IMG/VR virus record: IMGVR_UViG_3300024312_000003
Location: 96,001 to 160,000 of that record
Source of the DNA: a virus
Reading direction: 5' to 3' (one strand)
Length of the DNA: 64,000 nt
This document shows, one piece after another, positions 1,837 to 63,496 of the stretch (position 1 is the first letter of the stretch; every line of letters begins with the position of its first letter). The position numbers were made by a program, and so were the translations under genes. The notes beneath the pieces are model-generated. The model did no database searches and was not told the origin of the DNA. It saw nothing but the letters and a program-made list of their open reading frames with translations.

Positions 1837-4800
1837 TTATAACCAATATTCCCCGGAAGGATTATAAGTCCAATAATCAACTCTTGTCATTTCGTCAGAT
1901 CCTGAATTCATTGTAAAACCAGGGTGACCGCCGGACAGCGGAGTTGGATCAGTGTAAGTTGTAAACAGAACACCGTTTATATAAACCTCAAAGGTATCGT
2001 TAGCAGTAGGTACAACTTTAAGAATTGTATCGGCTGTTAAAGTATAAGGTATTGATGTTTGTTCAACCCAATTTCTGGTTATTCTTAAATTAGAAGAATT
2101 GAAGAAGAATCCATAAGCTTGAGTCATTGTTGCTCTGAGCACAGCACCAACTTCAAAATTGAATGTGGTTTGAAGCGGTTGTTTTATCCTCATTTCTACT
2201 TGGGACATCGGACCTGTTTCAGCATCTACAAACCAGCAGTATCCTCCGGCGTTTTTAGAAACATAACTGCCTCTAAGATATCCTTCTCCATCGCAATAGA
2301 AATAGTCTAAAGCTGGATAACTACCGAAGGCTAAAGAGCCAGCCCATCTAGAATCTAATGTTCTAACAGCAGTACCTGATGAAGCTGAGAAATTAAACTT
2401 TCTATAAGCGTCCGGATCAGCTGTGGCTGCCTTAACATAAACAGTTTCAGAGTACTCAGACCACGATTCTCCTATAGAGTTCGTCGCAGTAATTAAACAT
2501 CTTAGTCCAGCACCAACCATATCTAGCGTTGGGGTAGTCTCGTAAGTGTTTTGACCTATCAGTAAAGTATTACCAGCATACCACTGATAGGTGTAACCAA
2601 CAGGACTGTTCGTCCATGTACCAGTTGTTACTCTTACTGGGAATCCGGATTGTTTAGATCCAGATATTGTTGCCAAAGTAACAATTTGAGGAGTGGTAGC
2701 CGATACAATAACTATACCTGCTGATATGGCTGTAGTTAAGCCGGCATCGTTAACTGCTGTTTCTACGAAATAAACCTCATAACCTATATCGTCGTTGGTA
2801 CTAGTGTATGTATCGCTAGTTTCACCGACAATTAAAGAAGATATTCCGTTTAATTTTCGCATCCATTGAATTGTACTTGAATCAGCTTTAGGACTATATC
2901 TGGCCTTATTAGCTGTTAGTACATTTCCTATTACTCTGTTACCGGTGACATAAGCTTGCGAAATAGCTTTAGGGGGAGGCATCTCCATATAAGGATAATT
3001 GATGGGATCTCCTTGTGGAGTAAGTCCTCTTTCAGTTATCATTGGATGATACTGCGCGTTTAGATTGTAATAAACGCTTGTGGGTAGCAGACTTACATCA
3101 TCATCATCGTAAGATACAAAGCCGGGATCGACATCTTGATTAGTGATGTTTAGATCCACTAAAGATCCTTTATAAGAAATACCCTGTAGAACAGATATGC
3201 CATCTCTGTTTGCAGTAGCTGGATCATAAGCCGTAGGCACAACGTTTCTTGCAAAGTTCGTATCGCTAGCTTCTAATACCCCAGCGTACGCAAAGAAACC
3301 TAACTTGGGAAGTTTACCAGTTGGAGTTCTTTTACCAGAGTAAAGTATGTTATTCTTAGCATAGAACTTCATTGGTTCTCTGGTATTCCATGCGCTGAAT
3401 AATGAGGAATTAAAACTATCGTAATAAACGTTATTAAAGAAACCGGAAGATGAGTCGGCTCTTATTGCGACGACATTCTTATAAAAGAAAACAATGCCCC
3501 CGCCAGTTACTTGATTGTGCTCTGAATAGAACGGACCATCGCCGTGACCTATTACATTAGCAACATTGTCCATGAAGAATGTATTGCCGTAAATGTAAGG
3601 GAAATTAGCTAACTTAATTCCAAATACATCAGTAATAGTTAGAGCATCCACATACGTTGCTTGAGGCTCTCTTAAAGATATGCAGTTTTGTGGACCAGAG
3701 CGAATATGGTTGTATCTGAATATCTGACCAGTCGATCTATCTTTGATAGAGTCGCCTGCGTTACCGTTCTTATTTGCACCTATGTAGTTGAATTCATAAA
3801 TGGTGTTAGTTGATTCAGAATAACTATTGTGCGTACCGGTATCACCAACTTCACCATTATCATAGATGTAGTTAAAGAGTATATGTAAATTCTTTAGCTG
3901 AAATCTAGGACCGTTATTAGGATTAGAGTTAGCAAATATACCACAACTATTATCGTGAATTTCACAACCAGAAATGGTAATGTAATCCCCACCCATGACC
4001 TTAATGCCAGCGCTGAAATGACCCCAACGTGTTTGTTGGCCATACATGTTGATAAATTCATTATCCTTATAGGCGGCCGTAATCTTTAGTCCATGGATAT
4101 GGATGTATCCTGGCCGATAAGATGTACTAGCACCGATACCTAATGGTTGAATGATGTTAATTAAACCAGCCCCAGTGTGGGTATCGTTAAGTCTGGAATT
4201 AACCGGATCGTTTTCAGCTCCGATACCATTTAGTTCAGGTAATTGACCTTGTGGTCCTCTGACTCCAATGATTTCAATCCATCTGGTTATTTCACCCCTA
4301 ACATGTACTGGTAGTACGTGTCTGTAAGGTTGTGCTCTCCAATAAACAAATACTCTATCACCAGGTCTGAGGTTTAACCAAGGAACTTCGCTTAATTCAG
4401 CATATTCCATTCCTGGACCTACTCTGAAATCATAACTTGTTAAATCAACACCGATTCGGTTTGGAAGAACGTGATAGTACTTCCAATTTATGTCAGTTAT
4501 ATCGACTGCATTGAAAACAGGCTGATCTCTTAAATTAAAAGGATTAGGAGCTATCTGTCCTGGTGTAAATTCACCATTGCGATACTTCTTAAACCAAGTT
4601 ATGGTATCTTGTCTGGTTGGCACTGGTGGCAATATACTCATGATTAAGTTAGCGTTAGATTCACTAACTCCATCACTTATTCGATACGTCACCATTGGAA
4701 TAAGACCGTAATAACCATTGGTTGGACTTACAGACCAGGCGCCATTTGAATCTAATGAGAATAAACCGGCAGCTCCAAAATCAATAACATCCCCAGGCTG

Positions 4801-5463
4801 ATATGTGGTGGCATGACCTGAAACCGTAAGAGACACCACTGTCAGTGGAGATCCTTCGTAATCAAAGTCGTTAGTTAAGACATTGCCGGTAGAAGTTACA
4901 TTAGGTGGTAATGCAACAGAATCAGTCATACCGACAGGACCTTGATTGGTGCCTGTTATGTTAATTGTTAGCTTTTCTAATTTAGAACCAGTTGATCTAG
5001 CATCCAATACTCTGTAGTAAATTTCTTCACTTGCGACCTGTCCTTGAGTCAGAGCACTACCTGCAGATCCAATTGTAAAAATCCAAGCACCGTCGCTGTT
5101 TAGTCTGAAAGTTCCATAAACGGTATTGAAAGTAGTACCAACAGAACGATTTCCTCCAGAATAAACTATTTCATTAACGGATATGAAATCTCCCTCTGGA
5201 TCGCTATCGTTGGTTAAAACGTTGCCTGTTATTATTCTATTTGCATCAATAAGAGTTGCGGTATCCGGATTAGTAACCGGCATTTTATTAATGTTCTGTA
5301 ATTGCTGGAATACTGAGTTACCGGCAATTGGTTTTACTTCTCCGTTTGGATACTTTATGTATAAAGTTTCAGTAACAAAAGAATATCCTAATTCTTTCAA
5401 TAATAGATCTGACGGATCAGGCTGTGCCTTTGTCTCCGAAGATCTTATGGTAAATCTACTCAT
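1837..5463 (-). CDS. Large tail-fibre/depolymerase-like protein 1 (Ig-like repeats + right-handed beta-helix + C-terminal domain)
   Basis: Probable start MSRFTIR at 5463. GNVLTNDxDxEGD cadherin/VCBS-like repeats, beta-helix-type repeats (ISGCEIHDNSCGIF, FEFNYI, FRYNHI), Ig-like modules (GTWTNSPVGYTYQWY). Paralogous to the next two genes. Confidence 0.75.
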   Translation of the reverse strand: MSRFTIRSSETKAQPDPSDLLLKELGYSFVTETLYIKYPNGEVKPIAGNSVFQQLQNINKMPVTNPDTATLIDANRIITGNVLTNDSDPEGDFISVNEIVYSGGNRSVGTTFNTVYGTFRLNSDGAWIFTIGSAGSALTQGQVASEEIYYRVLDARSTGSKLEKLTINITGTNQGPVGMTDSVALPPNVTSTGNVLTNDFDYEGSPLTVVSLTVSGHATTYQPGDVIDFGAAGLFSLDSNGAWSVSPTNGYYGLIPMVTYRISDGVSESNANLIMSILPPVPTRQDTITWFKKYRNGEFTPGQIAPNPFNLRDQPVFNAVDITDINWKYYHVLPNRIGVDLTSYDFRVGPGMEYAELSEVPWLNLRPGDRVFVYWRAQPYRHVLPVHVRGEITRWIEIIGVRGPQGQLPELNGIGAENDPVNSRLNDTHTGAGLINIIQPLGIGASTSYRPGYIHIHGLKITAAYKDNEFINMYGQQTRWGHFSAGIKVMGGDYITISGCEIHDNSCGIFANSNPNNGPRFQLKNLHILFNYIYDNGEVGDTGTHNSYSESTNTIYEFNYIGANKNGNAGDSIKDRSTGQIFRYNHIRSGPQNCISLREPQATYVDALTITDVFGIKLANFPYIYGNTFFMDNVANVIGHGDGPFYSEHNQVTGGGIVFFYKNVVAIRADSSSGFFNNVYYDSFNSSLFSAWNTREPMKFYAKNNILYSGKRTPTGKLPKLGFFAYAGVLEASDTNFARNVVPTAYDPATANRDGISVLQGISYKGSLVDLNITNQDVDPGFVSYDDDDVSLLPTSVYYNLNAQYHPMITERGLTPQGDPINYPYMEMPPPKAISQAYVTGNRVIGNVLTANKARYSPKADSSTIQWMRKLNGISSLIVGETSDTYTSTNDDIGYEVYFVETAVNDAGLTTAISAGIVIVSATTPQIVTLATISGSKQSGFPVRVTTGTWTNSPVGYTYQWYAGNTLLIGQNTYETTPTLDMVGAGLRCLITATNSIGESWSEYSETVYVKAATADPDAYRKFNFSASSGTAVRTLDSRWAGSLAFGSYPALDYFYCDGEGYLRGSYVSKNAGGYCWFVDAETGPMSQVEMRIKQPLQTTFNFEVGAVLRATMTQAYGFFFNSSNLRITRNWVEQTSIPYTLTADTILKVVPTANDTFEVYINGVLFTTYTDPTPLSGGHPGFTMNSGSDEMTRVDYWTYNPSGEYWL

Positions 5464-5549: not shown

Positions 5550-8500
5550 TTAGGCGTTATCAGTCCAGTATGTGAATTCATTAGGTAAGTCGTTATCGCC
5601 TATACCTATTGACAATCCAGGATACCCTCCAGACAATGGGGAAGGATCATCATAAGTACTGAGTAATGCATCATTTACATAAATGCTGATGACACTACCA
5701 GATCTAGTTGCTCTTAGCTTATTAAGAGTTGCTTGACCATGATTCCATGCATTGATATAAGTTCCATTGCGATGGAGAGTTACCTCAGTTGTACCGCAAT
5801 TTATTTCATATCCTTGCACAGCATCAAAGTTCAAGACTACTCCTAAATTACCGCCAGAGTTCCTGAAGTTCATTCCTATTTCAACAGACACATTATTGCC
5901 TTGAGAATTTTCATACCAAGCTACACCACCATTCCAAAGTGAAACGTATGAGGCAGTTAATGCTCCATTCCCAGTACAGAAACAGTAATCGTGAGGATAT
6001 TGTCCTGCAGTTTGTCTGCTGTTCCACTTGGAATTTAGAGTCTTAAGACTGGTTCCATTTAATGCGCTGAAATTAAACTTACCAGTGGCATCAGGGTCAG
6101 TTATGGCCGTTATAACCGTTATCAGATTAGAGTCAGCTTCACCAAATTCACCACCAGAATTAGTTGCTTTAATTCTAGCAAAAATACTCTTTCCAATATA
6201 AGAATTGTCTGGAGTAAATGAAGTTGAAGTCTGTCCTGCTATTAGTGTTGAACTACCGTTGGTCTCTCTAACATACCACTGAACAGCGTAACTAATTGGA
6301 GTATTGGTCCAGTTACCATTATTACTTACAGTAACAGCAGAACCACTCTGACCACTTCCAGTTATAGTCGGTGCTGTTGTATTTTGAGGAGTAGTGGTTG
6401 TGGCTATATGGAATAAATCCGATTCAGATACAATGGTAGTCGATCCATAATGGAAAGTACATCTGAATTTAAGATCCATACCTCCGTCATCACTCACAAC
6501 TGTGTAGCTTAATGATGTCTGTCCGGCAATAGGATTTGTTCCACGATACCATTGATAATCAACAGAATCAAACTGAGGGCCTATTATTGCAGGTATTGCG
6601 GTGAGTACTGATCCAATTCCATGCGAGCCAGTTATACTCGGAACAGCATGAACAACAGGTGTTCTTTTCTTACCATAGGGTGCTTGTACTGGTAATCCTA
6701 ATGGCGTTAGTGCTCTAAGAATGACTTCGTTTTTGTGCGCCCCGTTTAAAGTAAAATACGGGCTCGTATTCATTATGCTAAAGTCATTATTTTGAATACT
6801 AGCAAATCCTGGATCAGCATTACTTAACGTTACATTCAGATCAGTTAGAGTTCCAGTGTATGGATTACCTTGGTTAACACTACCCGCATTTGGAGTTGCA
6901 GCTGGGTTAATCTCAGTAGGTTTAAAACTGTTTGTGAAATTGGAATAGAAATCAGCAATACCCTGATATCGGAAAGCCGAGAAAGGAGGAACAGTTCCGC
7001 CTTGAGTAGCTGCCTTAGAGTAATACAAATTATTGTAAGAAACTCCGGTTTGTAATGTTCTGGTATTCCAGAAATCAAATGTCGGAACCCCACCAGCATC
7101 GGTGTGTGCGCCAGCATAATCATATCCCGCTGCATCAAAATTAGCAACGCAGATATTATTGTAGAAGAAACACTTACCGTTTCCTCTTACTTGATTTTCG
7201 AATCCACCATATACGAAAATACCATCGCCGTGAGCAACCATACTTGCTTCGTTTATGAACTCAAATTGATTTGCATAAACGTAACTATAGTTAGCACAAT
7301 TAACTCCTAAAGAGTCTACTTGAGTAAAGCCTATGCTAACAGTTGCTTGTGGATCACGCAAAGACATTGCATTTGCAGAGCCGCTCTTGAAATAATTGTA
7401 TCGGAAAATATGTCCAGTCGATCTATCTTTGATCGAATCACCGGCATTACCTGGTTTATTAGGTTCAAAGTAGTTAAATTCATAAATCATACTTATTGCT
7501 TCAGTGTATGAATTATGAGTACCATAAGCCTCCTGTCCAGTCGCACCGTTATTGCCAAAACGATTAAACAACATATGGCAGAATCTAGACACCAATCTTT
7601 CTCCGTTACCTGGAGTTGAATTGATGAATACTCCAATTCCGTTATCATGGAAATAACAACCGGAAACAATCAGATAATCAACTCCAGCGACCTTGATACC
7701 GGCTACAAACTCACCCCAATCTTTATTAGCACCGGTGTAGTCCGTTATTCTTGAAGGAGTCATTGTATTTCTAATTTCTAAACCATGGATATGGATATAA
7801 CCTGGTTTAAAGAAATTATTAGACCTACCGTCTAGTGGTGGTACGATAACTATCATACCTGAACTAGAGTGAGTGCTGTTCAAAGAACTTGTACTGGCTA
7901 CTTCAATAGCGTTTGTTGCGTCCAATATTGGTTTGTTACCGTTAGAATCTTTAACACCAATAATTTCAATCCACTTTGCAGACGTTCCTCTGTTTTGCAG
8001 AGTGATAACATGATTATACGGCGTGGCTCTATAGTAGACAAATACTCTATCACCAGGAAGCAATTTATCCCAAGGAATATCTCCGATTTCAGCATATTCC
8101 ATTCCTGGACCTACTCTGAAGTCAAGACAGCTGGAATCAGCAGCATTTCTATTTGGGAACCATGGTCTATAGTCCCAATCTGGATAGGTCCAATTTACAG
8201 CGTATGATGGATCGACTCTTACTTGAACTGGATTGGTAGCAATGTTTACCGGGGTAACGTCACCATTCTCATATTGATTAAACCAATTAACAGCTTGAGT
8301 ATATTCGTTACTAACGTTAGGCAAGACAGTAACAACAATGCTTCCAGAAGTAACTGTCGCATTTCCATCTGTTACCGAGTACTGTATTGTTGGGAAGTAA
8401 CCAGAATAATCAGGATCGGCAGTAATAGACCACGTTCCATTAGCATTTACTGTAACACTACCAACGTCAGTTAAATTAACTGTAGAACCCGGAGTTCTGT

Positions 8501-13370: not shown

Positions 13371-13447
13371 TGGTGGGTCCGGAGGGACTCGAACCCCCGA
13401 CCTGCTGCTTAGAAGGCAGCTGCTCTATCCAGTTGAGCTACGGACCC
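13371..13447 (-). tRNA. tRNA-Arg(TCT)
   Basis: GGGTCCG/CGGACCC acceptor, GCTGC-CTTCTAA-GCAGC anticodon arm, CCA end, downstream hairpin at about 13316-13351. Confidence 0.95.
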
Positions 13448-13488
13448 ATTACCATTCTTTCTACATAACCTAGGTTGGTTGTGTAAAA

Positions 13489-14211
13489 TTATACAGCATC
13501 ATGTACTTTCAATCCAAATGTCTTTGGGAAATCATCCATTAACATTAGAAATTTATCTCTGATGAAATCCATATCCTCTTCAATTTCTTTCAATGTCTTT
13601 ACAACAAAAGGATCGTTTTTATCAATTTCACTCTTAGCTATTTCCTCTTCAACTTTATTTTTTCGATCAAGTAAATCTGATATTTTAATCTCGACTTGTT
13701 CGTTCAGAATGTCGATGACCTCAGTAACAGTTTGAATGTTACCAACATAAAAAGGAGGGTTCGAATGCCCGCATGCTTTAAAAGCTTCTTTATAGATCTT
13801 AGCCACATCATCGTAAATATGCAAACCAGCGTTTGCGGCGGATTCAAGATGATAACTTTTAGATCTAGAAAAACGAGCATCTAAACTCCAAAGAGATCGA
13901 GGAATATAAATCGATCCATTATCCTCACCTGAAACATTATATTCTGAAAATCCATAATTGCAGATGGAGTGTCCAATTACGCCAGTCAAGACATATTTTT
14001 TTGTACCGGCATCCTGGAGTTCAGAATCATCTGCATCTTTTACAATCAAATTAGAATTACAACTCATCGGAATGATGAATCGTTTATCTGCAATAGAAAA
14101 CATCTTTTGCAGAGGCAAAACCATATATGTTCCATTAGGCTTTGCTTGATAGTTAGAGAATGCAAAATGTTTTCCACTAACAACAATCAGATCTGCACGA
14201 AGATCAGTCAT
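13489..14211 (-). CDS. Hypothetical protein with C-terminal coiled coil
   Basis: 240-aa ORF overlapping (ATGA) with the upstream gene. Confidence 0.7.
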   Translation of the reverse strand: MTDLRADLIVVSGKHFAFSNYQAKPNGTYMVLPLQKMFSIADKRFIIPMSCNSNLIVKDADDSELQDAGTKKYVLTGVIGHSICNYGFSEYNVSGEDNGSIYIPRSLWSLDARFSRSKSYHLESAANAGLHIYDDVAKIYKEAFKACGHSNPPFYVGNIQTVTEVIDILNEQVEIKISDLLDRKNKVEEEIAKSEIDKNDPFVVKTLKEIEEDMDFIRDKFLMLMDDFPKTFGLKVHDAV

Positions 14212-16195: not shown

Positions 16196-16732
16196 TTAGC
16201 TCAAAATTTTACCAGTACCAGTACTAGCAATTTCCGGTAGACTAAGATTCTGTACGAGACTCATACTACAAATAGGACATCTAGGACGATTCATTGAATT
16301 TACTGGATGATTTTCCAGTTTCAGAAATGTATGACCGAGATCACACTTATCAATTACTGGATTTAAAGCCAATACTTGTTTCGAATGCTCGCTTAGTTCT
16401 TTGTATTCTGATTTAGATGCATTATCAGTCAAAGATAGAATTCGATAAGCTGTAGATCCCTTATATGTCAAAGCATAGTATCCTTCTTCAGCCTTAACGA
16501 CAATAGGACACATGTATCCAAGACTGATCAGTCTAGAATTACCTGATTTAGACGGTACATCGCCCGCACCAAGAGGACCATTCTTAAATGCGGCTCTGAT
16601 GACATCTCTTTCAGCAGACGTAAAGTCCTCTACTTCCTGAATGATTTTCAAGGCAGCATTAATTTCCTCTTGAGAAGATAGCTTTGTTGAGACATGAATG
16701 ATCTCGAATAGGTCTTTGAGTTTATAAGTCAT
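16196..16732 (-). CDS. Hypothetical protein, possible winged-helix domain
   Basis: FTSAERDVIRAAF...RLISLGYM...YALTYKG pattern. Confidence 0.55.
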   Translation of the reverse strand: MTYKLKDLFEIIHVSTKLSSQEEINAALKIIQEVEDFTSAERDVIRAAFKNGPLGAGDVPSKSGNSRLISLGYMCPIVVKAEEGYYALTYKGSTAYRILSLTDNASKSEYKELSEHSKQVLALNPVIDKCDLGHTFLKLENHPVNSMNRPRCPICSMSLVQNLSLPEIASTGTGKILS

Positions 16733-16938
16733 TTAGATTGCCTAACTGGAATTGAAATAATCTTACCACTACCTTGATCAATAATAGACCCGTCGACTTG
16801 TTTGATATGAACTGGGATGTCTTCCCAGTCAGTAGCTATTTCCATAGTAATGTTATTTTCATAAAGAGTTCTAAATTGAAGTTTATCAGGTTCTTCACTA
16901 TTTTCTACTCTCAAGTAACGCAGTTGACATTTAAGCAT
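16729..16938 (-). CDS. Hypothetical protein
   Basis: 69-aa ORF overlapping the next start by 4 nt. Confidence 0.6.
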   Translation of the reverse strand: MLKCQLRYLRVENSEEPDKLQFRTLYENNITMEIATDWEDIPVHIKQVDGSIIDQGSGKIISIPVRQSK

Positions 16939-17008
16939 TAGAAATAAATAAAGTTAGTTTACGACATATACAGTGGTAGGAATAACTTCCTACCACTGTA
17001 TGTTGTTT

Positions 17009-17099
17009 TGGCGGAGAGTGAGAGATTCGAACTCTCGATACACTTTTGGTGTATGCTCCCTTAGCAGGGGAGTACCATCGGCCACTCGGTCAACTCTCC
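17009..17099 (-). tRNA. tRNA-Ser(GCT)
   Basis: GGAGAGT/ACTCTCC acceptor, CTCCC-CTGCTAA-GGGAG anticodon arm, long variable arm, G73-CCA. Confidence 0.95.
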
Positions 17100-17102
17100 A
17101 AA

Positions 17103-17273
17103 TCAATGTTTGTAGAAAAGCTTTCTTGCTTTTCTAATTTTCACTTCAGTGAATTTCTTAGCGTGTTTATTCCAGCCAGAAGCTATCATCTCATCACTGA
17201 CTGTCTTTAAACAATTTTGCCATCTCCTAGGATCAATGTCACTTGGCTTAGCACACACTAGTAAAGTAGGCAT
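17103..17273 (-). CDS. Small basic hypothetical protein between the two tRNA-Ser genes
   Basis: Start re-assigned to MPTLLVC (RBS AGGAAAAAAAG); the tracked 17369 start lies inside the tRNA. Confidence 0.5.
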   Translation of the reverse strand: MPTLLVCAKPSDIDPRRWQNCLKTVSDEMIASGWNKHAKKFTEVKIRKARKLFYKH

Positions 17274-17293
17274 TTCTTTTTTTCCTAAAATGT

Positions 17294-17383
17294 TGGCGGA
17301 AGCGGTGAGATTCGAACTCACGGTAGGATCTCTCCTACACCGGTTTTCAAGACCGGGGCCATAAACCACTCGACCACGCTTCC
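17294..17383 (-). tRNA. tRNA-Ser(TGA)
   Basis: GGAAGCG/CGCTTCC acceptor, CCGGT-CTTGAAA-ACCGG anticodon arm, long variable arm, GCCA end. Confidence 0.95.
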
Positions 17384-17389
17384 TAATCT

Positions 17390-18240
17390 CTTCTATTTTA
17401 ACTCAGCAATCCGACGCCAAGTCTATGGTCAATTCCATACAGCAACCCAAGGGAGTGAGAAGCCTGTTAGTCGAGGAATGAGTACTTTTCTCAAATGAAG
17501 GTAATTAGCCTTCACGGTCCTGATATTTCTATCGTTCAATCCAAGAACTGTGTTGCAGAGGCTCCACTTTTGGAACTTACAGAGCACGTCAAACGCTTCC
17601 GAGCTTGACTGGTATAACATTCTCTTGATACTCGACTCATTCATTAAAATCGTAGGCAATTATTCTGCGTTACCCCATTGCCAGGTCTCTATCACACGCA
17701 GCCTTTGGCTAGTCATTAGTTTCGATAAGTATTCTTATCTAAGCATCATCCGTCAGACTATTATGGCGATCGATTATCCGATAACCCACAGCTATCGCTT
17801 TGGAATTACCATTTACGGATAGTATTTCTACAAAGAATATCCTTGTCCGTCGACTCGTTTATTCTCATCATCGAATTCAGTTACAGAACCGCTGCAACCT
17901 CAACGACACGCCTGCAATTGTTGATGACACTTATTCGCAATCTATAGAGGAATCTGTGGTGCCGGGCTTCATGCGAAGCCATTCCGTTGATTGATCCCAT
18001 CAGAGTCAAAACTCTTCCAATCTCTATAAATCACTACAATACACGCCTATACCAACGCTTTCCTGTTCCGGAACAGTTATACGTTGACAGAGTATTCTCT
18101 CTGTGACAGTATTGCTAGTTTATGCCCTTATTCTGGTATTCGGGCTCAATATGTTGTCTACCAGACTGACAAGAAGAAGTTGATAACGACTCGAGATGTT
18201 GTTAATCAGTTTCTCCAAAACATACATAGATTGTGTAAAA
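17390..18240 (-). ncRNA. Large structured ncRNA candidate, possibly ROOL-like
   Basis: About 850 nt without a convincing ORF; many hairpins, a pseudoknot at 17655-17701 and the motif GAATAAGGGCATAAACTAG at 18115-18133; immediately 5' of tRNA-Ser. Boundaries are approximate. Confidence 0.55.
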
Positions 18241-18247
18241 TATTACA

Positions 18248-18460
18248 TCAATCGCTCAATTTCTTTATTTCAACAGTATGGAATCGGTGAGGTTCATATT
18301 GTAAATTTACAGTATGAATTCGACCGTCATCACAAAGTATGATTACTGATGGAACTTGTAAATAAACTTCACCAAAACGTTCAACTGACGATGTCCATTT
18401 CAGAACTTCGCCAGAGACAGTTATACATGTTCTACCAATTAGATTAATTTGAATCTTCAC
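18248..18460 (-). CDS. Hypothetical protein
   Basis: 70-aa ORF tiled in an operon. Confidence 0.55.
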   Translation of the reverse strand: MKIQINLIGRTCITVSGEVLKWTSSVERFGEVYLQVPSVIILCDDGRIHTVNLQYEPHRFHTVEIKKLSD

Positions 18461-18466
18461 GATTAG

Positions 18467-18721
18467 TTACTGTTTAAAGATTTGATTAGACCAGTAATAA
18501 GGAAATGCTACTGCAGATACTAGTGCTAGAAATTCAATGGTTTCATTTTCACGTTGATGAGTCCAGCATTCTTTATTATTGATATTACATTCAATCGCTG
18601 TCTTATCAATGTTATTGATAGCGTGACCAAAAGTAATCACAGACATGAAGATATAAAGAAATACAGAAAATGATTTCCAGAACTTAAAAAATCCAGTATC
18701 TCGAAAACGGATTGACATCAT
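18467..18721 (-). CDS. Small two-TM membrane protein
   Basis: Two hydrophobic segments; RBS AAGGAA. Confidence 0.65.
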   Translation of the reverse strand: MMSIRFRDTGFFKFWKSFSVFLYIFMSVITFGHAINNIDKTAIECNINNKECWTHQRENETIEFLALVSAVAFPYYWSNQIFKQ

Positions 18722-18738
18722 GATTTCCTTTATGTAAT

Positions 18739-19098
18739 TTAAGTGTTCTTAAGACCACTATTCCGAACTTGTTTAATCGCCACTATTAGTTCTTTAGAAT
18801 TATCAATTGGAGGAATGCTACCAACTTGTTCAATAGGGATGGTTGTTTGTTGAACTGGAGTTTTTACATAAGCGGTATTATTAGCCATTTCATCCAACAC
18901 ACTATTAACCCAATCGTGCCTAGAAACAATTGCTACTTTTTTATTTTTTAACTGAGGTGATTGTAGTGAATAATAATCTTCTATTCGTTCGACATAGAGT
19001 ATCTCGTCTGGAACATCGCCAACATTCATGTTGTGTAATTCCGCTCTAACAGTTTTGGTCTGACCAAATAAAGTACAAGTTATGTTAGATTTTAACAT
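18739..19098 (-). CDS. Hypothetical protein
   Basis: RBS AGGAGA, 119 aa. Confidence 0.7.
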   Translation of the reverse strand: MLKSNITCTLFGQTKTVRAELHNMNVGDVPDEILYVERIEDYYSLQSPQLKNKKVAIVSRHDWVNSVLDEMANNTAYVKTPVQQTTIPIEQVGSIPPIDNSKELIVAIKQVRNSGLKNT

Positions 19099-19164
19099 TA
19101 TGTTCTCCTAGACTTTCACTAATCAATATAAAGAAAAAAAAAATATATTGATTAGTGAACAACA

Positions 19165-21309: not shown

Positions 21310-21580
21310 TTTTCAAATCCATTACAGATTTGATACTCATCAATTAAATCGGCAGGAATATCAGATTCAATAGGTTCGGATCATTATCACCTACTTGTTA
21401 TTAAACCTGATAACTAGGTTTTGCTCAAGCGGCCAGGCGCTGAGCAAACGTGCTGTCGTTTGCGGCAGTTAAATTGAGATTTGTATGTTTCGATTGATTT
21501 CTCAATCTCTAACGGAGTTCTCATACTTACTCCGAGTAGTAATCTCCACTAGCTCACCCTGTCGAAACCAGATCTGGCCC
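21310..21580 (-). ncRNA. ssrA: tmRNA coding piece of a permuted two-piece gene; tag (A)NDSTFAQRLAA at 21425-21463
   Basis: Begins GGGCCAGATCTGGTTTCGACAGGG; pk1 (CGGAG/CTCCG + GTATG/CATAC); TTAACTGCC-GCA AAC GAC AGC ACG TTT GCT CAG CGC CTG GCC GCT TGA; helix over the tag end; three further pseudoknot-like elements. The 3' boundary is approximate. Confidence 0.9.
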
Positions 21581-21611
21581 ACCTAAACAAACACAATATT
21601 GAATCTGCTTA

Positions 21612-21695
21612 GGTGGACCAGGTGGGAATCGAACCCACGTCCAGAATGCATTTGCTTTGATTTTCAGTTTCGGTATTTCTACCTCTACACACTAC
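21612..21695 (-). ncRNA. ssrA: tmRNA acceptor piece of the permuted gene
   Basis: TTCTGGACGTGGGTTCGATTCCCACCTGGTCCACC (T-arm plus acceptor 3' strand) lies upstream of the 5' end; CTGGTCC pairs with GGGCCAG including G3.U70. The 5' boundary is approximate. Confidence 0.9.
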
Positions 21696-21698
21696 CAT

Positions 21699-22196
21699 TT
21701 ATACTTCAGTCCAAGTTCTGCCATTTCTAATATCAGAAACAGTTGATTTGGATATGTTGTATTTATCAACATAGTAACTGTATGGTTCTTTTCCGTATTT
21801 GATGTTACTAACCTGCTCTATTGTCAAATGCGAATTATTTCTAACATTAATACCTTTAGCAGATCGACCTTTATTTACCATATCATCCATATTGTCTTGA
21901 TGAGTGCCTGCAAATAAATGATCAGGAGCAACACATTTACGATTATCACAATGATGACAAATCATAATACTGGGGTCAAGAATCTGACCACCAATAAATA
22001 ATTGAAAAGCCCATCTATGAGCGCGTATTTTAGACTGTTCCTCTCTAGATCCAACTGATATCTGACCGTATCCATCTTGATTGAGTTTACCTGTCCACTC
22101 TATACAATCATTATTTGGATTAAGTTGAAGTTTGTCTATAAAACGTTTTAAGACTTTTTCATCAAATACGATATCTGGATCTAGAGAATTTGACAT
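21699..22196 (-). CDS. HNH homing endonuclease
   Basis: CIEWTG...GYGQI...RAHRWAF...ICHHCDNRKCVAPDHLFAGTHQDNMDDMVNKGR; probable start MSNSLD. Confidence 0.9.
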   Translation of the reverse strand: MSNSLDPDIVFDEKVLKRFIDKLQLNPNNDCIEWTGKLNQDGYGQISVGSREEQSKIRAHRWAFQLFIGGQILDPSIMICHHCDNRKCVAPDHLFAGTHQDNMDDMVNKGRSAKGINVRNNSHLTIEQVSNIKYGKEPYSYYVDKYNISKSTVSDIRNGRTWTEV

Positions 22197-58908: not shown

Positions 58909-59245
58909 TGTTGAGTTCAATATGGTTCGTTAATCCATACCCGCACCATGACGTGCAGCTGCATGTTTCCATGCATGACCAGACTATATCATCTTTCCTA
59001 TTTGGAAAGCTTTCTGTTTCGAACCACTTGGTTCTACTCTACTTACTTCCAGCGTTTGCTGTGTTTTCGATAGTCGTTGAACGTGCCTCCAATCATTGGA
59101 GGATTCGCTGCTGGTTGTCCAATCCATCTCGTTTTCAAACCATGGCTTTGCTTTGCAGCTCGCAGTGGTGAAATGGCTCTAAGGAGTTTCTAGCAATTAA
59201 GAAAGTTTTCTAATGAGATTACTCTCAAAAGGCGCTCAGTAATTA
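58909..59245 (-). mobile_element. Group I intron (337 nt, no ORF) in thyA
   Basis: Splits YQR|SADV; starts UAAUU after exon U; P AAUUGCUAGAAA, Q CCAGCAGCGAA, R GUUCAACGACUAU, S AAGAUGAUAUAGUC; P9 UGCAUG-GAAA-CAUGCA; P10 CUGA/UCAG. Confidence 0.92.
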
Positions 59246-60196
59246 ACGCTGATACAGAAGGCATGAAAGTCTACCACTAGGAATTCCAATTTCCTTAGCA
59301 ATCTTAGCAGCGATTTTGAAACCACTCTCTCCAGATTCTACAGCTTGAGTAATTTCGATTATTCGAGACTCATGACCAGCAGTAATGATATCTGCGGTGA
59401 TTTCTTCCAAAGGAATTGGTTCCACGTCAAACTGGAACAAGCAATGACATGCTGCCAAAGCCATTTTACCTTGAATAACATTATCTTGAGGACTAATGGT
59501 TTCGTCAGGCAGATCGGCAGGATTCCAGGCAGTAACAATGATGCGTCTAGAATAAGGACGATTCTTAATCGTATCAATTGCTTCTTGAAGCTGATCGATA
59601 ACTAGACCTGATGGAGTTTTCCAATTGCGCCATTGTGCACCATATACTGGACCGAGATCACCGGATTTAGCAATCGTATATTCAACAAATGGATTAACAC
59701 CACCGTCAAGTAGAAACTTCATGGTTCCTTTAGTAAAACCATTCTTAAGTCCATCTTGCATGTATTCGTTTACTTTGGTACGAATAACATCTAGTGGTTC
59801 TCCGATATTGTAAATACCAGATTCGATATCTGCTTTTTTCAGATAACCAATTACCTGTTCCTCATGCAGATTATGAGCTTTAGAATATTCTGAGATCAAT
59901 TCATTAAAAGGACGAATTCTTTTAATGACAGCGTCTTCTTTAAGAGCCCAGCTGTCCCAGATGTGTACGTCTTTTTCAAGAAGATAATTGATGTTGGTAT
60001 CACCTTTGATGAACCAAATCAGCTCTTCAATGATTCCTCTGGTAAATACCTTCTTAGTCGTCAAAAGAGGAAAACCTTCTCGGAGATTAAAACGCATCAT
60101 TGCACCAAAAATAGCAATCGTTCCAGTGTTGGTTCGATCGTCTCTCTCAGTGCCGTTTTCCAAAATATTCTTAACAAGATCTGTGTATTGTTTCAT
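59246..60196 (-). CDS. thyA: Thymidylate synthase exon 1
   Basis: DRTNTGT, GFPLLTTKKV, ELIWFIKG, LGPVYGAQWR, SRRIIVTAWNP, LAACHCLFQF, LYQR. Confidence 0.95.
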
Positions 60197-62494: not shown

Positions 62495-62573
62495 GATTGC
62501 GAGCTTGAAAGAAAAAAATGAGTAGTGAACATAAATGAGAGGGTTTAAACCCTCTCATTTATAATCGAATTGA

Positions 62574-62858
62574 TCACGATTGAAGGCGCTTGAGTCCGAA
62601 TTGGACAGGCTTGTACAGAAGGACAAGCGATGTTGCAAAAGACAGAACCCCGGCGATGCCGCCGAGCTTGTCCATGGTGAAAACGCTCACGTTGGCCGCC
62701 ACGATGAATGCAGCAATGATGACTGTCCAACCGGAAAAGAACTTGAAGAGTTCCATGTTAGTGTTGTCATTCATGATTTTCTTGCATTGGAGGTTGGAGT
62801 TTACTGCATTCGGGTTGTAATGCGAACGGCCAATTTGATTAGACACAGACTTCTTCAT
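62574..62858 (-). CDS. Small two-TM protein
   Basis: Hydrophobic segments; start could be the ATG at 62774. Confidence 0.6.
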   Translation of the reverse strand: MKKSVSNQIGRSHYNPNAVNSNLQCKKIMNDNTNMELFKFFSGWTVIIAAFIVAANVSVFTMDKLGGIAGVLSFATSLVLLYKPVQFGLKRLQS

Positions 62859-62859
62859 T

Positions 62860-63087
62860 TTAAAAGCTCCTAAGGTCGAGTTCTTCGGAAAAGCACTGAA
62901 TCAACTTATAGAGACAGTACATGAAAAGGACAACCGCGAAACCAAGCAATGCCAACGTGGCCAGCGCACCAATGGCAAGCATGATTTCATAAATTATCAA
63001 CAGGATGAAACCGACAATCATCTTGACAACTGGCCAGATGATGATTGCAAGGATACCCAGGGCAATGAGTGTTGTGATTTCTTCCAT
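62860..63087 (-). CDS. Small membrane protein
   Basis: Highly hydrophobic 75 aa. Confidence 0.6.
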   Translation of the reverse strand: MEEITTLIALGILAIIIWPVVKMIVGFILLIIYEIMLAIGALATLALLGFAVVLFMYCLYKLIQCFSEELDLRSF

Positions 63088-63088
63088 A

Positions 63089-63364
63089 TTAAAAAATGGA
63101 GATGAGGTCAGAGATCAAATTCTTGATCTTCTTTTGAACAGGAACAATCCAATTCCTGTTCATGTGGTCGTAACCATTGTAAACGCAGATGCCGTAAATG
63201 GAGGCGACTACGGTGGTGACTTCAGAGCCGAGATTGGTCTGACTCACTCCCTCGATCACAACAGGGACTGAAGTCAGGTAGAGGCTGTAAAAGAAACCAT
63301 AGGCGAGGACCTTCGAAACGATTTCCGAGGTCGATTGATTCTGAATGCTGAAAGCGGTGTTCAT
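63089..63364 (-). CDS. Small membrane protein
   Basis: RBS GAGGA, hydrophobic segments. Confidence 0.65.
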   Translation of the reverse strand: MNTAFSIQNQSTSEIVSKVLAYGFFYSLYLTSVPVVIEGVSQTNLGSEVTTVVASIYGICVYNGYDHMNRNWIVPVQKKIKNLISDLISIF

Positions 63365-63496
63365 GATTGTTTATCCTCTGTGATTTGTTAGATGGTGAAC
63401 CTTCTTCATACTGAAAGGTCCGTTATAAATTATTATTTTAACGATTAGAAAAAAGGGGGAGTGGCGACCACTCCCCCTCGACGCCTAATTTATTGC

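What the first reader, a model, noticed from the sequence alone, without database searches (positions are those of the whole stretch)
17390..18240. About 850-nt ornate RNA candidate, possibly ROOL-like, feeding into tRNA-Ser
Seen: no credible gene; stems ACAGAG/CTCTGT (18087-18104), CTGTTCCGGAACAG (18063-18076), GGCTTC/GAAGCC (17965-17980), GATAAG/CTTATC (17724-17739), GTCAA/TTGAC (17588-17609), GAAGG/CCTTC (17497-17513); a long-range GTCGAG/CTCGAC pairing; and an H-type pseudoknot (GGCAAT/ATTGCC crossing CTGCGT/ACGCAG, 17655-17701). From memory, the motif GAATAAGGGCATAAACTAG (18115-18133) resembles a conserved 5' segment of ROOL RNAs, which are tRNA-linked, phage-associated and form RNA-only cages. 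It is longer than typical ROOL (about 600 nt), in the GOLLD size range, and sits in a probable proteobacterial phage, so it may be a new subclass.
Basis: partly seen in the sequence, partly recalled or inferred. Interest (0 to 1): 0.78.

Follow-up and report, generated by a model that had tools for sequence, protein, structure and literature searches.

The report
New giant structured RNA in jumbo phage
An ~840-base gene-free stretch next to a serine tRNA in a river jumbo phage is very probably a large folded non-coding RNA of a class not yet catalogued, sitting in the same niche as the cage-forming phage RNAs GOLLD and ROOL but matching neither family's model.

Summary
The stretch (window 17384-18247, minus strand) is real and is not coding. 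All six frames carry TAA, TAG and TGA, and the longest sense ORF is lost in a relative.

Three lines of evidence point to a structured RNA:
- Conservation. Two related metagenomic phage contigs keep it far better than the flanking genes: 98.0% against 86-87% identity in L009, and 95.6% (first 620 nt) against 81-86% in L027.
- Structure. Ten base pairs show two-sided compensatory changes. In the 67%-identical variable domain, independent folds of the two sequences share 38 of 49 pairs, against 2.4 expected. G-U-type changes, fold energy and pair sharing all favour the minus strand.
- Expression. Contigs from three RNA libraries of three studies lie wholly inside the stretch.

Rfam 15 finds no family. 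The idea of a giant RNA feeding into tRNA-Ser is supported.

A covariance model of the core finds nothing in the distant relatives RP12, FLC4-3B and FLC9. RP12 and FLC4-3B do carry a different, unannotated ~790-nt structured RNA candidate near their own tRNA cluster.

Function is unknown. My best reading is a stable RNA released from a shared transcript by RNase P cutting at the tRNA. The same stretch was noted once before in this scan, on this same genome only.

The parts
17384..18247 (-). Whole conserved non-coding element, the large RNA candidate (864 nt at most; about 840 nt if transcription starts at the TATG motif).
   Evidence: ORF-free in all frames. Identity to L009 is 98.0%, against 86.4% and 87.1% in the flanking ORFs. 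Identity to L027 is 90.3% overall and 95.6% in the first 620 nt, against 81.2% and 85.6% in the flanking ORFs. No Rfam family matches.
18229..18247 (-). 19-nt box TGTAWWATTTTACACAAYC at the head of the element. It can form a small hairpin. Candidate promoter or processing signal for stable-RNA genes.
   Evidence: Occurs exactly twice in the window, both on the minus strand: here, and about 30 nt upstream of tRNA-Arg at 13477-13495. Expected count is 0.27 even when 3 mismatches are allowed. Its role is inferred.
18221..18228 (-). Tandem TATG TATG, a candidate transcription start.
   Evidence: phiKZ late promoters consist of T(-3)ATG(+1) (PMC7598289). L027 keeps only the second TATG. Inference only: the start site is not mapped.
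17643..18226 (-). Conserved 5' core (about 580 nt). Predicted multi-domain fold with domains at about 18115-18036, 18034-17937 and 17933-17740.
   Evidence: 98.5% identical to L009. L027 has 27 changes in the first 620 nt, with no 3-base periodicity. In helices predicted with probability above 0.9, 9 of 9 changes in close variants keep the pair on the minus strand.
18053..18086 (-). Hairpin domain CAACGU...GCGUUG, enclosing the CUGUU-CCGG-AACAG hairpin.
   Evidence: C-G to U-A change on both sides in L027 (A3 columns 165/192). A-U to G-U in L009 and X20. G-C to G-U in L009.
18124..18145 (-). Hairpin GCCC-(GAAUACCAGAAUAA)-GGGC with a 14-nt invariant loop.
   Evidence: Predicted. Invariant in all homologues. 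In one frame it reads IEPEYQNKGIN*, a look-alike of GNAT motif A.
17724..17739 (-). Hairpin GAUAAG-AAUA-CUUAUC with a variable tip.
   Evidence: L027 and X20 carry a 4-nt insertion and changes at the tip. The stem appears kept by inspection of the alignment.
17655..17701 (-). Candidate H-type pseudoknot (CUGCGU/ACGCAG crossing GGCAAU/AUUGCC), inside an 88-nt block that is invariant in all homologues.
   Evidence: The sequences are present. There is no variation, so the pairing could not be tested.
17476..17642 (-). Hypervariable but structurally conserved domain (167 nt here, 181 nt in L027).
   Evidence: 67% identity to L027, with indels. Independent minimum-energy folds share 38 of 49 pairs. 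With the same number of random substitutions the expectation is 2.4 +/- 3.5, and 0 of 300 trials reach the observed value. The antisense strand shares only 19.
17588..17609 (-). Hairpin GUCAAGC...GUUUGAC in the variable domain.
   Evidence: G-C to A-U on both sides, A-U to G-U, and G-U to A-U in L027 (columns 646-667).
17561..17576 (-). Hairpin GUUCC-AAAAG-UGGAGC in the variable domain.
   Evidence: U-A to C-G on both sides, and U-G to U-A, in L027 (columns 682-697).
17495..17515 (-). Hairpin GUGAAGG-CUAAUUA-CCUUCAU.
   Evidence: Three pairs changed on both sides and one G-U to A-U in L027 (columns 752-772).
17400..17475 (-). Conserved 3' block with two predicted hairpins, followed by a 16-nt spacer to the tRNA.
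   Evidence: 97.4% identical to L009. About 60 nt are invariant in L027.
17294..17383 (-). tRNA-Ser(UGA), directly abutting the RNA's 3' end.
   Evidence: ARAGORN and Rfam. 100% identical in L009 and, by eye, over the whole tRNA in L027. No terminator-like site lies between the RNA and the tRNA.
18248..18460 (-). Upstream 70-aa ORF. Its stop codon touches the element.
   Evidence: Evolves like a coding gene: 40 of 213 nt differ from L027, and 25 of those are at third codon positions.

Best explanation
This is the gene for a large (about 840 nt), highly structured non-coding RNA of a class not yet catalogued. It is encoded on the minus strand of a jumbo phage related to the phiKZ-like Ralstonia phages RP12 and RP31.

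Shown:
- The stretch cannot code for protein.
- It is held under much stronger nucleotide-level constraint than the neighbouring genes.
- Its helices tolerate only pair-preserving changes. One domain has diverged to 67% identity while keeping its fold.
- Contigs from RNA libraries cover it.

Inferred:
- Transcription starts just after the stop codon of the 70-aa ORF. There a 19-nt box shared with the tRNA-Arg gene is followed by a TATG motif.
- The transcript runs without a terminator into tRNA-Ser(UGA).
- RNase P cutting at the 5' end of the tRNA releases the RNA with a defined 3' end.
- The RNA then accumulates as a stable molecule and acts through its shape, alone or with a protein partner.

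Architecture: a roughly 580-nt conserved core and a conserved 3' block flank an inserted variable arm. It occupies the same genomic niche as GOLLD and ROOL (a phage tRNA/tmRNA island), but it matches neither family's model.
For: 1. Non-coding. All three stop codon types occur in all six frames, with 19-20 stops per sense frame. The longest sense ORF (76 aa) is not kept in L027. The small ORFs have no Pfam or PHROG match.
2. Constraint.
   - Against L009: RNA 98.0%, 70-aa ORF 86.4%, 56-aa ORF 87.1%, tRNAs 100%.
   - Against L027: first 620 nt 95.6%, against 81.2% and 85.6% in the upstream ORFs. The RNA's substitutions show no codon periodicity (9/6/12), whereas the ORF's are 9/6/25.
3. Structure.
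   - RNAalifold on three sequences gives 270 pairs, 10 of them changed on both sides.
   - On a structure predicted from the window sequence alone, L027's substitutions keep 8 double-changed pairs against 2.8 expected (P=0.003) and break 21 against 29.6 expected (P=0.006).
   - In the variable domain, independent folds share 38 of 49 pairs against 2.4 expected.
4. Strand.
   - In close variants, 9 of 9 changes in high-confidence helices give G-U or A-U on the minus strand.
   - Minimum free energy is -239 on the minus strand against -210 to -215 kcal/mol on the plus strand, in both homologues.
   - The antisense strand shares only 19 pairs.
   - The orientation matches that of the adjoining tRNAs.
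5. RNA libraries. Contigs from three RNA libraries of three studies lie wholly inside the element:
   - X3: 17418-17599 and 17797-18204, with no differences from the window.
   - X19: 17655-18133.
   - X20: 17684-18186.
6. Start and end. The 19-nt box is shared with the tRNA-Arg upstream region. TATG resembles phiKZ late promoters. No terminator-like site lies before the tRNA.
Against: - Only three full-length and two partial homologues are known, and all are at least 90% identical overall.
- Changes on both sides are few (10 pairs) and lie mostly in the variable domain.
- The fold of the conserved core, the pseudoknot and any long-range helix remain predictions.
- Four changes in helices of moderate confidence break pairs.
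- Fold-energy z-scores are modest (-3.0).
- The RNA-library data are assembled contigs. They show neither strand, nor ends, nor that the molecules were RNA rather than carried-over DNA.
- The transcription start, RNase P release, stability and any function are all inferred.
- No homologue was found in the nearest cultured phages.
- An 8-residue GNAT-like coding motif sits in one hairpin and is unexplained.
Confidence: 0.82

Rival explanations
1. It is only a long, structured 5' leader of the tRNA-Ser transcript. It would act in cis, controlling processing, stability or timing of the phage tRNAs, and would be degraded after RNase P cleavage rather than acting as an RNA in its own right.
For: It abuts tRNA-Ser(UGA) with no terminator between them. 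It shares an upstream box with another tRNA gene.
Against: - About 840 nt of near-invariant, multi-domain sequence is far more than tRNA leaders need. The neighbouring tRNA-Arg has about 30 nt after the same box.
- RNA-library contigs cover the body of the element at 400-500 nt length.
- Conservation approaches that of the tRNAs themselves (98.0% against 100%).
Confidence: 0.1
2. It is a divergent member of the ROOL or GOLLD family.
For: Its size is in the GOLLD range. It is phage-encoded and lies next to tRNAs and a tmRNA, which is typical of both families (PMC12286853). It contains a variable internal region.
Against: - No hit to RF03087 or RF02032 at E<=10, either in the 1.5-kb region or in the whole phage record.
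- The layout is opposite to GOLLD's: here the 5' two-thirds are the most conserved, whereas GOLLD has a conserved 3' region and a variable 5' region.
- It is about 270 nt longer than the ROOL model (574 positions).
Confidence: 0.03
3. It is a large catalytic or mobile RNA, such as an unrecognised intron-like ribozyme or a relic of one, lodged in the tRNA island.
For: The phage has a group I intron elsewhere (58959-59255), and HNH endonuclease genes in its RNA island are noted by other first-stage readers (unchecked). The element's size and conservation are ribozyme-like.
Against: - No group I or group II model matches at E<=10.
- No interrupted host gene is visible: the flanking 70-aa ORF ends with its own stop codon and the tRNA is intact.
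- There is no endonuclease or reverse-transcriptase ORF inside it.
Confidence: 0.04
4. It is a decayed protein gene (for example a GNAT acetyltransferase pseudogene), or a DNA-level element such as a replication origin or packaging site.
For: One frame reads IEPEYQNKGIN*, which matches GNAT motif A. The same 24-nt pattern finds almost only GNAT genes in public genomes.
Against: - No other GNAT segment aligns in any frame.
- A pseudogene would drift faster than its neighbours, not 4-6 times slower.
- Compensatory base-pair changes, and a fold kept at 67% identity, are RNA signatures.
- There are no direct repeats or iterons, and only one palindrome.
Confidence: 0.02

Closest known systems
GOLLD RNA (Rfam RF02032)
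   Same: A giant (>800 nt) phage or prophage RNA, often next to tRNA islands, with a variable internal region and unknown function (PMC12286853).
   Different: - No covariance-model match at E<=10.
[quoted passage not shown] Here the 5' core is the most conserved and the variable arm lies in the 3' third.
- Oligomerisation is untested here.
ROOL RNA (Rfam RF03087)
   Same: A phage-encoded, tRNA-linked, abundant, multi-domain RNA with an internal linker that varies between homologues.
   Different: - No covariance-model match at E<=10.
- About 840 nt, against a model of 574 positions.
- The variable region here keeps a defined fold, whereas ROOL's linker is disordered and unconserved.
- The quoted 'ROOL 5' motif' was not verified.
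Unannotated ~790-nt RNA candidate of Ralstonia jumbo phages RP12 and FLC4-3B
   Same: - Found in the closest cultured relatives.
- ORF-free.
- Lies near the tRNA cluster and next to the homologue of the window's 201-aa gene.
- Preceded by a TATG-containing box.
- The fold is conserved at 70% identity: 69 shared pairs against 9 expected.
   Different: - No sequence or covariance-model similarity to the window RNA in either direction.
- It has its own terminator instead of running into a tRNA.
- It lies downstream of the tRNAs rather than upstream.
Stable RNAs whose 3' end is made by RNase P cutting at a downstream tRNA or tRNA-like element
   Same: A non-coding RNA placed directly 5' of a tRNA with no terminator between them.
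   Different: Processing here is inferred from gene layout only. No read ends were available.

Membership tests
ROOL (RF03087) | Match to the family covariance model at or near its gathering score (99.1 bits). | tested here: not met
   No match at E<=10 in window 17100-18600 or in the whole 180-kb record.
ROOL (RF03087) | Length of about 570-600 nt. | tested here: not met
   The element is 840-864 nt, and all of it is conserved. The model has 574 positions.
ROOL (RF03087) | Encoded in phages or prophages, often near tRNA islands. | tested here: met
   Jumbo-phage contig. The element abuts tRNA-Ser, with further tRNAs and a tmRNA nearby.
ROOL (RF03087) | Self-assembles into an RNA-only multimeric nanocage. 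| not testable with these tools
   Needs in-vitro transcription and cryo-EM or SEC-MALS. Palindromic 6-mers are not enriched.
GOLLD (RF02032) | Match to the family covariance model (gathering score 150 bits). | tested here: not met
   No match at E<=10.
GOLLD (RF02032) | Conserved 3' region with a less conserved 5' region. | tested here: not met
   Here the 5' ~580 nt are 95.6-98.5% conserved and the variable domain is at 17476-17642, in the 3' third.
GOLLD (RF02032) | Size of about 800 nt or more, phage-borne, next to tRNAs. | tested here: met
   840-864 nt, directly 5' of tRNA-Ser(UGA).
Structured non-coding RNA (generic criteria) | No conserved reading frame. | tested here: met
   Stops in all frames. 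The longest ORF is not kept in L027, and its indels are not multiples of three.
Structured non-coding RNA (generic criteria) | Base pairs kept through compensatory change. | tested here: met
   10 pairs changed on both sides. 8 against 2.8 expected on a structure predicted independently. 38 of 49 pairs shared at 67% identity. The sample is small: 3 full-length sequences.
Structured non-coding RNA (generic criteria) | Transcribed as a discrete RNA. | tested here: inconclusive
   RNA-library contigs of three studies lie inside the element. Contigs show neither strand nor ends, and they cannot exclude carried-over DNA.
Group I / group II introns | Match to the intron covariance models. | tested here: not met
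   No intron model matches at E<=10 in the region. Group-II-D1D4-1 is absent from the whole record. The phage's real group I intron, at 58959-59255, is detected.

The most novel reading that the evidence does not exclude
This may be a third, independent class of giant RNA linked to phage tRNA islands that, like GOLLD and ROOL, self-assembles into an RNA-only higher-order particle. It would be the first such class in phiKZ-like jumbo phages of Proteobacteria. The conserved core would build the shell, and the fast-evolving but fold-preserving arm would act as a strain-specific cargo or recognition module. With the unrelated RP12/FLC4-3B RNA, it would suggest that large architectural RNAs are a recurrent, repeatedly invented component of jumbo-phage RNA islands.
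Probability: 0.12. Interest if true: 0.9.

Novelty: new variant of a known kind. Interest (0 to 1): 0.7.

Why it matters
Very large, highly conserved bacterial and phage RNAs are rare. GOLLD and ROOL were recently shown to form RNA-only nanocages of unknown purpose (PMC12286853).

A new, unrelated ~840-nt RNA in the same genomic niche would help in three ways:
- It gives an independent case for asking what tRNA-island giant RNAs do.
- It extends the phenomenon to jumbo phages of the phiKZ type and their presumably proteobacterial hosts.
- It is a ready candidate for in-vitro folding and cryo-EM.

Its layout, an invariant core plus a fold-preserving hypervariable arm, also offers a natural handle for separating the scaffold from a possible specificity module. 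The second candidate, found in cultured Ralstonia phages RP12 and FLC4-3B, makes the question testable at the bench.

Tried and rejected
Searches for homologues that found nothing useful:
- blastn of the stretch against GenBank phages: no match.
- Close-relative searches in IMG/VR with three neighbouring or conserved proteins: none.
- The 201-aa family alignment gave 11 IMG/VR loci at about 50% identity. None has the RNA by blastn, nhmmer or covariance model.
- DNA pattern scans: the 19-mer of the 'ROOL-like' motif and a purine/pyrimidine pattern of the pseudoknot found nothing in viral or metagenome contigs.
- The hairpin-loop pattern found 20 loci. All that I could place are protein-coding look-alikes, 16 or so being GNAT genes (..PEYQNKGIG..), with no similarity beyond the 24 nt.
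- Covariance model R1 of the core (17936-18115) found only itself. RP12, FLC4-3B, FLC9 and two IMG/VR relatives were negative.
- Model R2 of the RP12/FLC4-3B RNA found only RP12 among the records searched (FLC4-3B, from which it was also built, was not included). Nothing in this phage.
- Contigs found through proteins P0059, P0098 and P0099 are not syntenic, have no DNA available, or are too short.

Other checks that led nowhere:
- Palindromic 6-, 8- and 10-mers, as possible kissing loops, are not enriched.
- A sigma-70 promoter and terminator scan gave nothing above chance near the element.
- The ORF-poor stretch at 62495-63460 turned out to hold three tandem small ORFs and is not an RNA candidate.

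Sequencing runs:
- In the three RNA libraries laid, the flanking genes (16700-16940, 17105-17266, 18240-19100) had no cover, while the DNA run X14 covered 18841-19100.
- The RNA contigs end at different places (18204, 18186, 18133), so they do not define a 5' end.
I do not use them for habitat or expression claims.

My recalled accession for GOLLD (RF01998) was wrong: that accession is group-II-D1D4-1. The correct accession is RF02032.

Full report
**Setting.** The window is part of a 180-kb IMG/VR virus record, estimated 65% complete. Its SNF2-type helicase is closest, at 45% amino-acid identity, to those of Ralstonia jumbo phages RP12, RP31 and FLC, followed by other phiKZ-like phages. The finding lies in an island of RNA genes that all read on the minus strand:
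- tRNA-Arg (13371-13447);
- tRNA-Ser(GCU) (17009-17099);
- tRNA-Ser(UGA) (17294-17383);
- a permuted tmRNA (21334-21703);
- four more tRNAs at 34-36 kb.

The stretch in question fills the gap between the stop codon of a 70-aa ORF (18248-18460) and tRNA-Ser(UGA).

- The stretch has 19-20 stop codons in each sense frame, and all three stop types occur in all six frames. Neither an ordinary gene nor a recoded one fits.
- The small ORFs have no Pfam or PHROG match.
- Fold energy alone is only moderately unusual: z = -3.0 on the minus strand and -2.4 on the plus strand.
- GC content is 41-46%, against 32-37% in the surrounding windows of the same profile.

**Homologues.** GenBank phages and IMG/VR gave none. 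A search of the large protein collection with the neighbouring 201-aa and 70-aa proteins led to metagenomic contigs with the same gene order:
- L009, a 265-kb ENA contig (also recovered as L029 and L030);
- L027, a 12.5-kb Logan contig.

Laying public runs on the region added two partial variants from RNA libraries, X19 and X20. I rebuilt these from the listed differences.

**Conservation.**

| Region | vs L009 | vs L027 |
|---|---|---|
| RNA element, whole | 98.0% | 90.3% |
| RNA element, first 620 nt | not computed | 95.6% |
| 70-aa ORF | 86.4% | 81.2% |
| 119-aa ORF | not compared | 85.6% |
| 56-aa ORF between the tRNAs | 87.1% | not in contig |
| tRNAs | 100% | not computed |

Differences in the ORFs pile up at third codon positions (9/6/25). 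Differences in the element do not (9/6/12). The pattern along the element is a mosaic:
- a roughly 580-nt 5' core and a roughly 75-nt 3' block are almost invariant;
- 17476-17642 is hypervariable and carries indels.

**Structure.**
- Alifold consensus. RNAalifold on the three full sequences predicts 270 pairs. Ten changed on both sides with the pair kept, about 22 changed on one side with the pair kept, and eight are broken or gapped.
  - The GAAGG/CCTTC hairpin carries three such double changes.
  - GTCAA/TTGAC, the GUUCC/GGAGC hairpin and the CAACGU/GCGUUG helix carry one each.
- Independent test on the window-only fold. Alifold uses covariation to choose its structure, so I also scored L027's substitutions on a structure predicted from the window sequence alone. 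The result was 8 kept double changes against 2.8 expected (P=0.003), and 21 broken pairs against 29.6 expected (P=0.006).
- Variable domain, the clearest result. At 67% identity, independent minimum-energy folds of the two versions share 38 of 49 pairs in alignment coordinates. Introducing the same number of random substitutions leaves 2.4 +/- 3.5, and none of 300 trials reached 38.
- Close variants. In helices predicted with probability above 0.9, 9 of 9 changes keep the pair, mostly as G-U.

**Strand.** Four things point to the minus strand:
- Those G-U changes would be C.A mismatches on the plus strand.
- The antisense of the variable domain shares only 19 pairs.
- The minus strand folds 24-29 kcal/mol better in both homologues.
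- The adjoining tRNAs read the same way.

**What was not confirmed.**
- The long-range GTCGAG/CTCGAC pairing is broken in L027 without compensation.
- The H-type pseudoknot lies in an 88-nt block with no variation, so it cannot be judged.
- The claimed likeness to ROOL fails:
  - cmscan of the region against all of Rfam 15 at E<=10 finds only the tRNA and noise;
  - ROOL (RF03087) and GOLLD (RF02032) find nothing at E<=10 in the whole record.

**Expression.** The word index lists 20 runs from 15 studies that hold part of the stretch, six of them on record as RNA. I laid four runs. In the three RNA libraries (riverine, 'outdoor' and rhizosphere; three studies) contigs of 182-507 nt lie wholly inside the element:
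- X3: 17418-17599 and 17797-18204;
- X19: 17655-18133;
- X20: 17684-18186.

This shows that the sequence is present in RNA libraries from several places. As contigs, they give no strand, no ends and no proof against carried-over DNA. I rate this as supporting, not decisive.

**Ends.** All of the following is inference from layout.
- The first 19 nt after the ORF's stop codon (18229-18247, TGTAATATTTTACACAATC) recur, with the degenerate form TGTAWWATTTTACACAAYC, exactly once more in the window: on the same strand, about 30 nt upstream of tRNA-Arg.
- Both copies are followed by TATG(T).
- In phiKZ, late promoters are defined by T(-3)ATG(+1), and early promoters by a phage-specific AT-rich box (PMC7598289).
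- L027 keeps the box and the second TATG, but varies the three bases between them.
- I therefore place the start at about 18221-18230.
- At the other end there is no terminator-like site before tRNA-Ser, so RNase P cleavage of a co-transcript would set the 3' end at 17384.

**Comparison with known families.** GOLLD and ROOL are phage or prophage RNAs that often lie near tRNA islands. They are abundant, have an internal variable linker, and form RNA-only nanocages (PMC12286853).
- Shared with this element: the niche, the size class and the presence of a variable insert.
- Different:
  - it matches neither model;
  - it is conserved 5' rather than 3', unlike GOLLD;
  - it is about 270 nt longer than the ROOL model;
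  - its variable part keeps a defined fold, rather than being disordered.

It is thus an analogue at most, and by membership tests a new class. Literature searches for large non-coding RNAs in phiKZ-like phages found nothing comparable.

**Breadth.** A covariance model of the core (R1) finds nothing in RP12, FLC4-3B, FLC9 or the IMG/VR relatives. As far as I can see, the class is confined to a narrow clade of uncultured phages.

**A second, different candidate.** RP12 and FLC4-3B share an unannotated ~790-nt ORF-free stretch just downstream of their tRNA cluster and of the homologue of the window's 201-aa gene.
- It is bounded by a terminator, a TATG-containing box and a second terminator.
- It is 70% identical between the two phages.
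- Independent folds share 69 pairs against 9.1 +/- 6.6 expected, with 21 kept double changes.
- It has no Rfam match.
- It has no similarity to the window RNA by nhmmer or by covariance model, in either direction.

This suggests that large structured RNAs may be a recurrent, independently filled slot in the RNA islands of these jumbo phages.

**An oddity.** The invariant 14-nt loop hairpin at 18124-18145 reads IEPEYQNKGIN* in one frame. The corresponding 24-nt pattern finds almost only GNAT acetyltransferase genes (motif A) in public genomes and metagenomes. No other GNAT segment aligns in any frame. I regard it as coincidence or a very old remnant. It does not change the reading, because a decaying gene would not be 4-6 times better conserved than its intact neighbours.

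**Verdict.** This is a real, conserved, structured non-coding RNA gene, and most probably a new class of giant phage RNA linked to a tRNA.
- Confidence that it is a functional structured RNA on the minus strand: about 0.82.
- That it is released at the tRNA by RNase P: about even odds.
- That it assembles like GOLLD or ROOL: about 0.12.

The function is unknown.

Noticed in passing
L008:6991-7907 (RP12, AP017924.1 about 129650-130560) and L033:2209-3254 minus strand (FLC4-3B, LC819007.1 126208-127253): An unannotated ~790-nt ORF-free stretch shared by two cultured Ralstonia jumbo phages at 70% identity. It has an upstream terminator, a TATG-containing box and a downstream terminator. Independent folds share 69 pairs against 9 expected, with 21 compensatory double changes. 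It has no Rfam hit and no similarity to the window RNA. This is a second, different large phage RNA candidate.
   Followed up: partly
window 18115-18150 (minus strand): One frame reads IEPEYQNKGIN*, a 9-of-10 match to GNAT acetyltransferase motif A. A 24-nt pattern taken from this site finds 20 public loci, about 16 of them GNAT genes. No other GNAT similarity exists in any frame. Unexplained: coincidence or an ancient remnant.
   Followed up: yes
window 13477-13495 and 18229-18247 (minus strand): The same 19-nt box TGTAWWATTTTACACAAYC, followed by TATG(T), precedes both tRNA-Arg and the large RNA, and occurs nowhere else in the window. It may be a promoter or processing signal for the phage's stable-RNA genes.
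   Followed up: partly
window 17103-17273 (minus strand): A 56-aa ORF (MPTLLVCAKPSD...) lies between the two tRNA-Ser genes, preceded by an AGGA-type ribosome-binding site. It is 87.1% identical to L009, in the same range as the 70-aa coding ORF (86.4%). It is probably a real small gene embedded in the tRNA operon.
   Followed up: partly
window 17384-18247 (minus strand): The pentamer GAAUA occurs 7 times against 1.8 expected (P about 0.003, not corrected for testing many words). Two occurrences fall in predicted hairpin loops and the rest mostly at stem-loop or junction boundaries.
   Followed up: partly
L017 (IMGVR_UViG_3300044504_000033): 1098-1911, 4328-5218, 6740-7666: A 74-kb complete viral contig carrying a homologue of the 201-aa gene has three ORF-free gaps of 800-930 nt. 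One lies directly downstream of that gene, as in RP12. None is similar to the other RNAs by blastn.
   Followed up: no
L010, L011, L027, L029, L030: Several independent metagenome assemblies of this phage group break at tRNA-Ser(UGA). The likely cause is that tRNA-like words are shared with other organisms. This limits recovery of the RNA and its downstream genes on a single contig.
   Followed up: no
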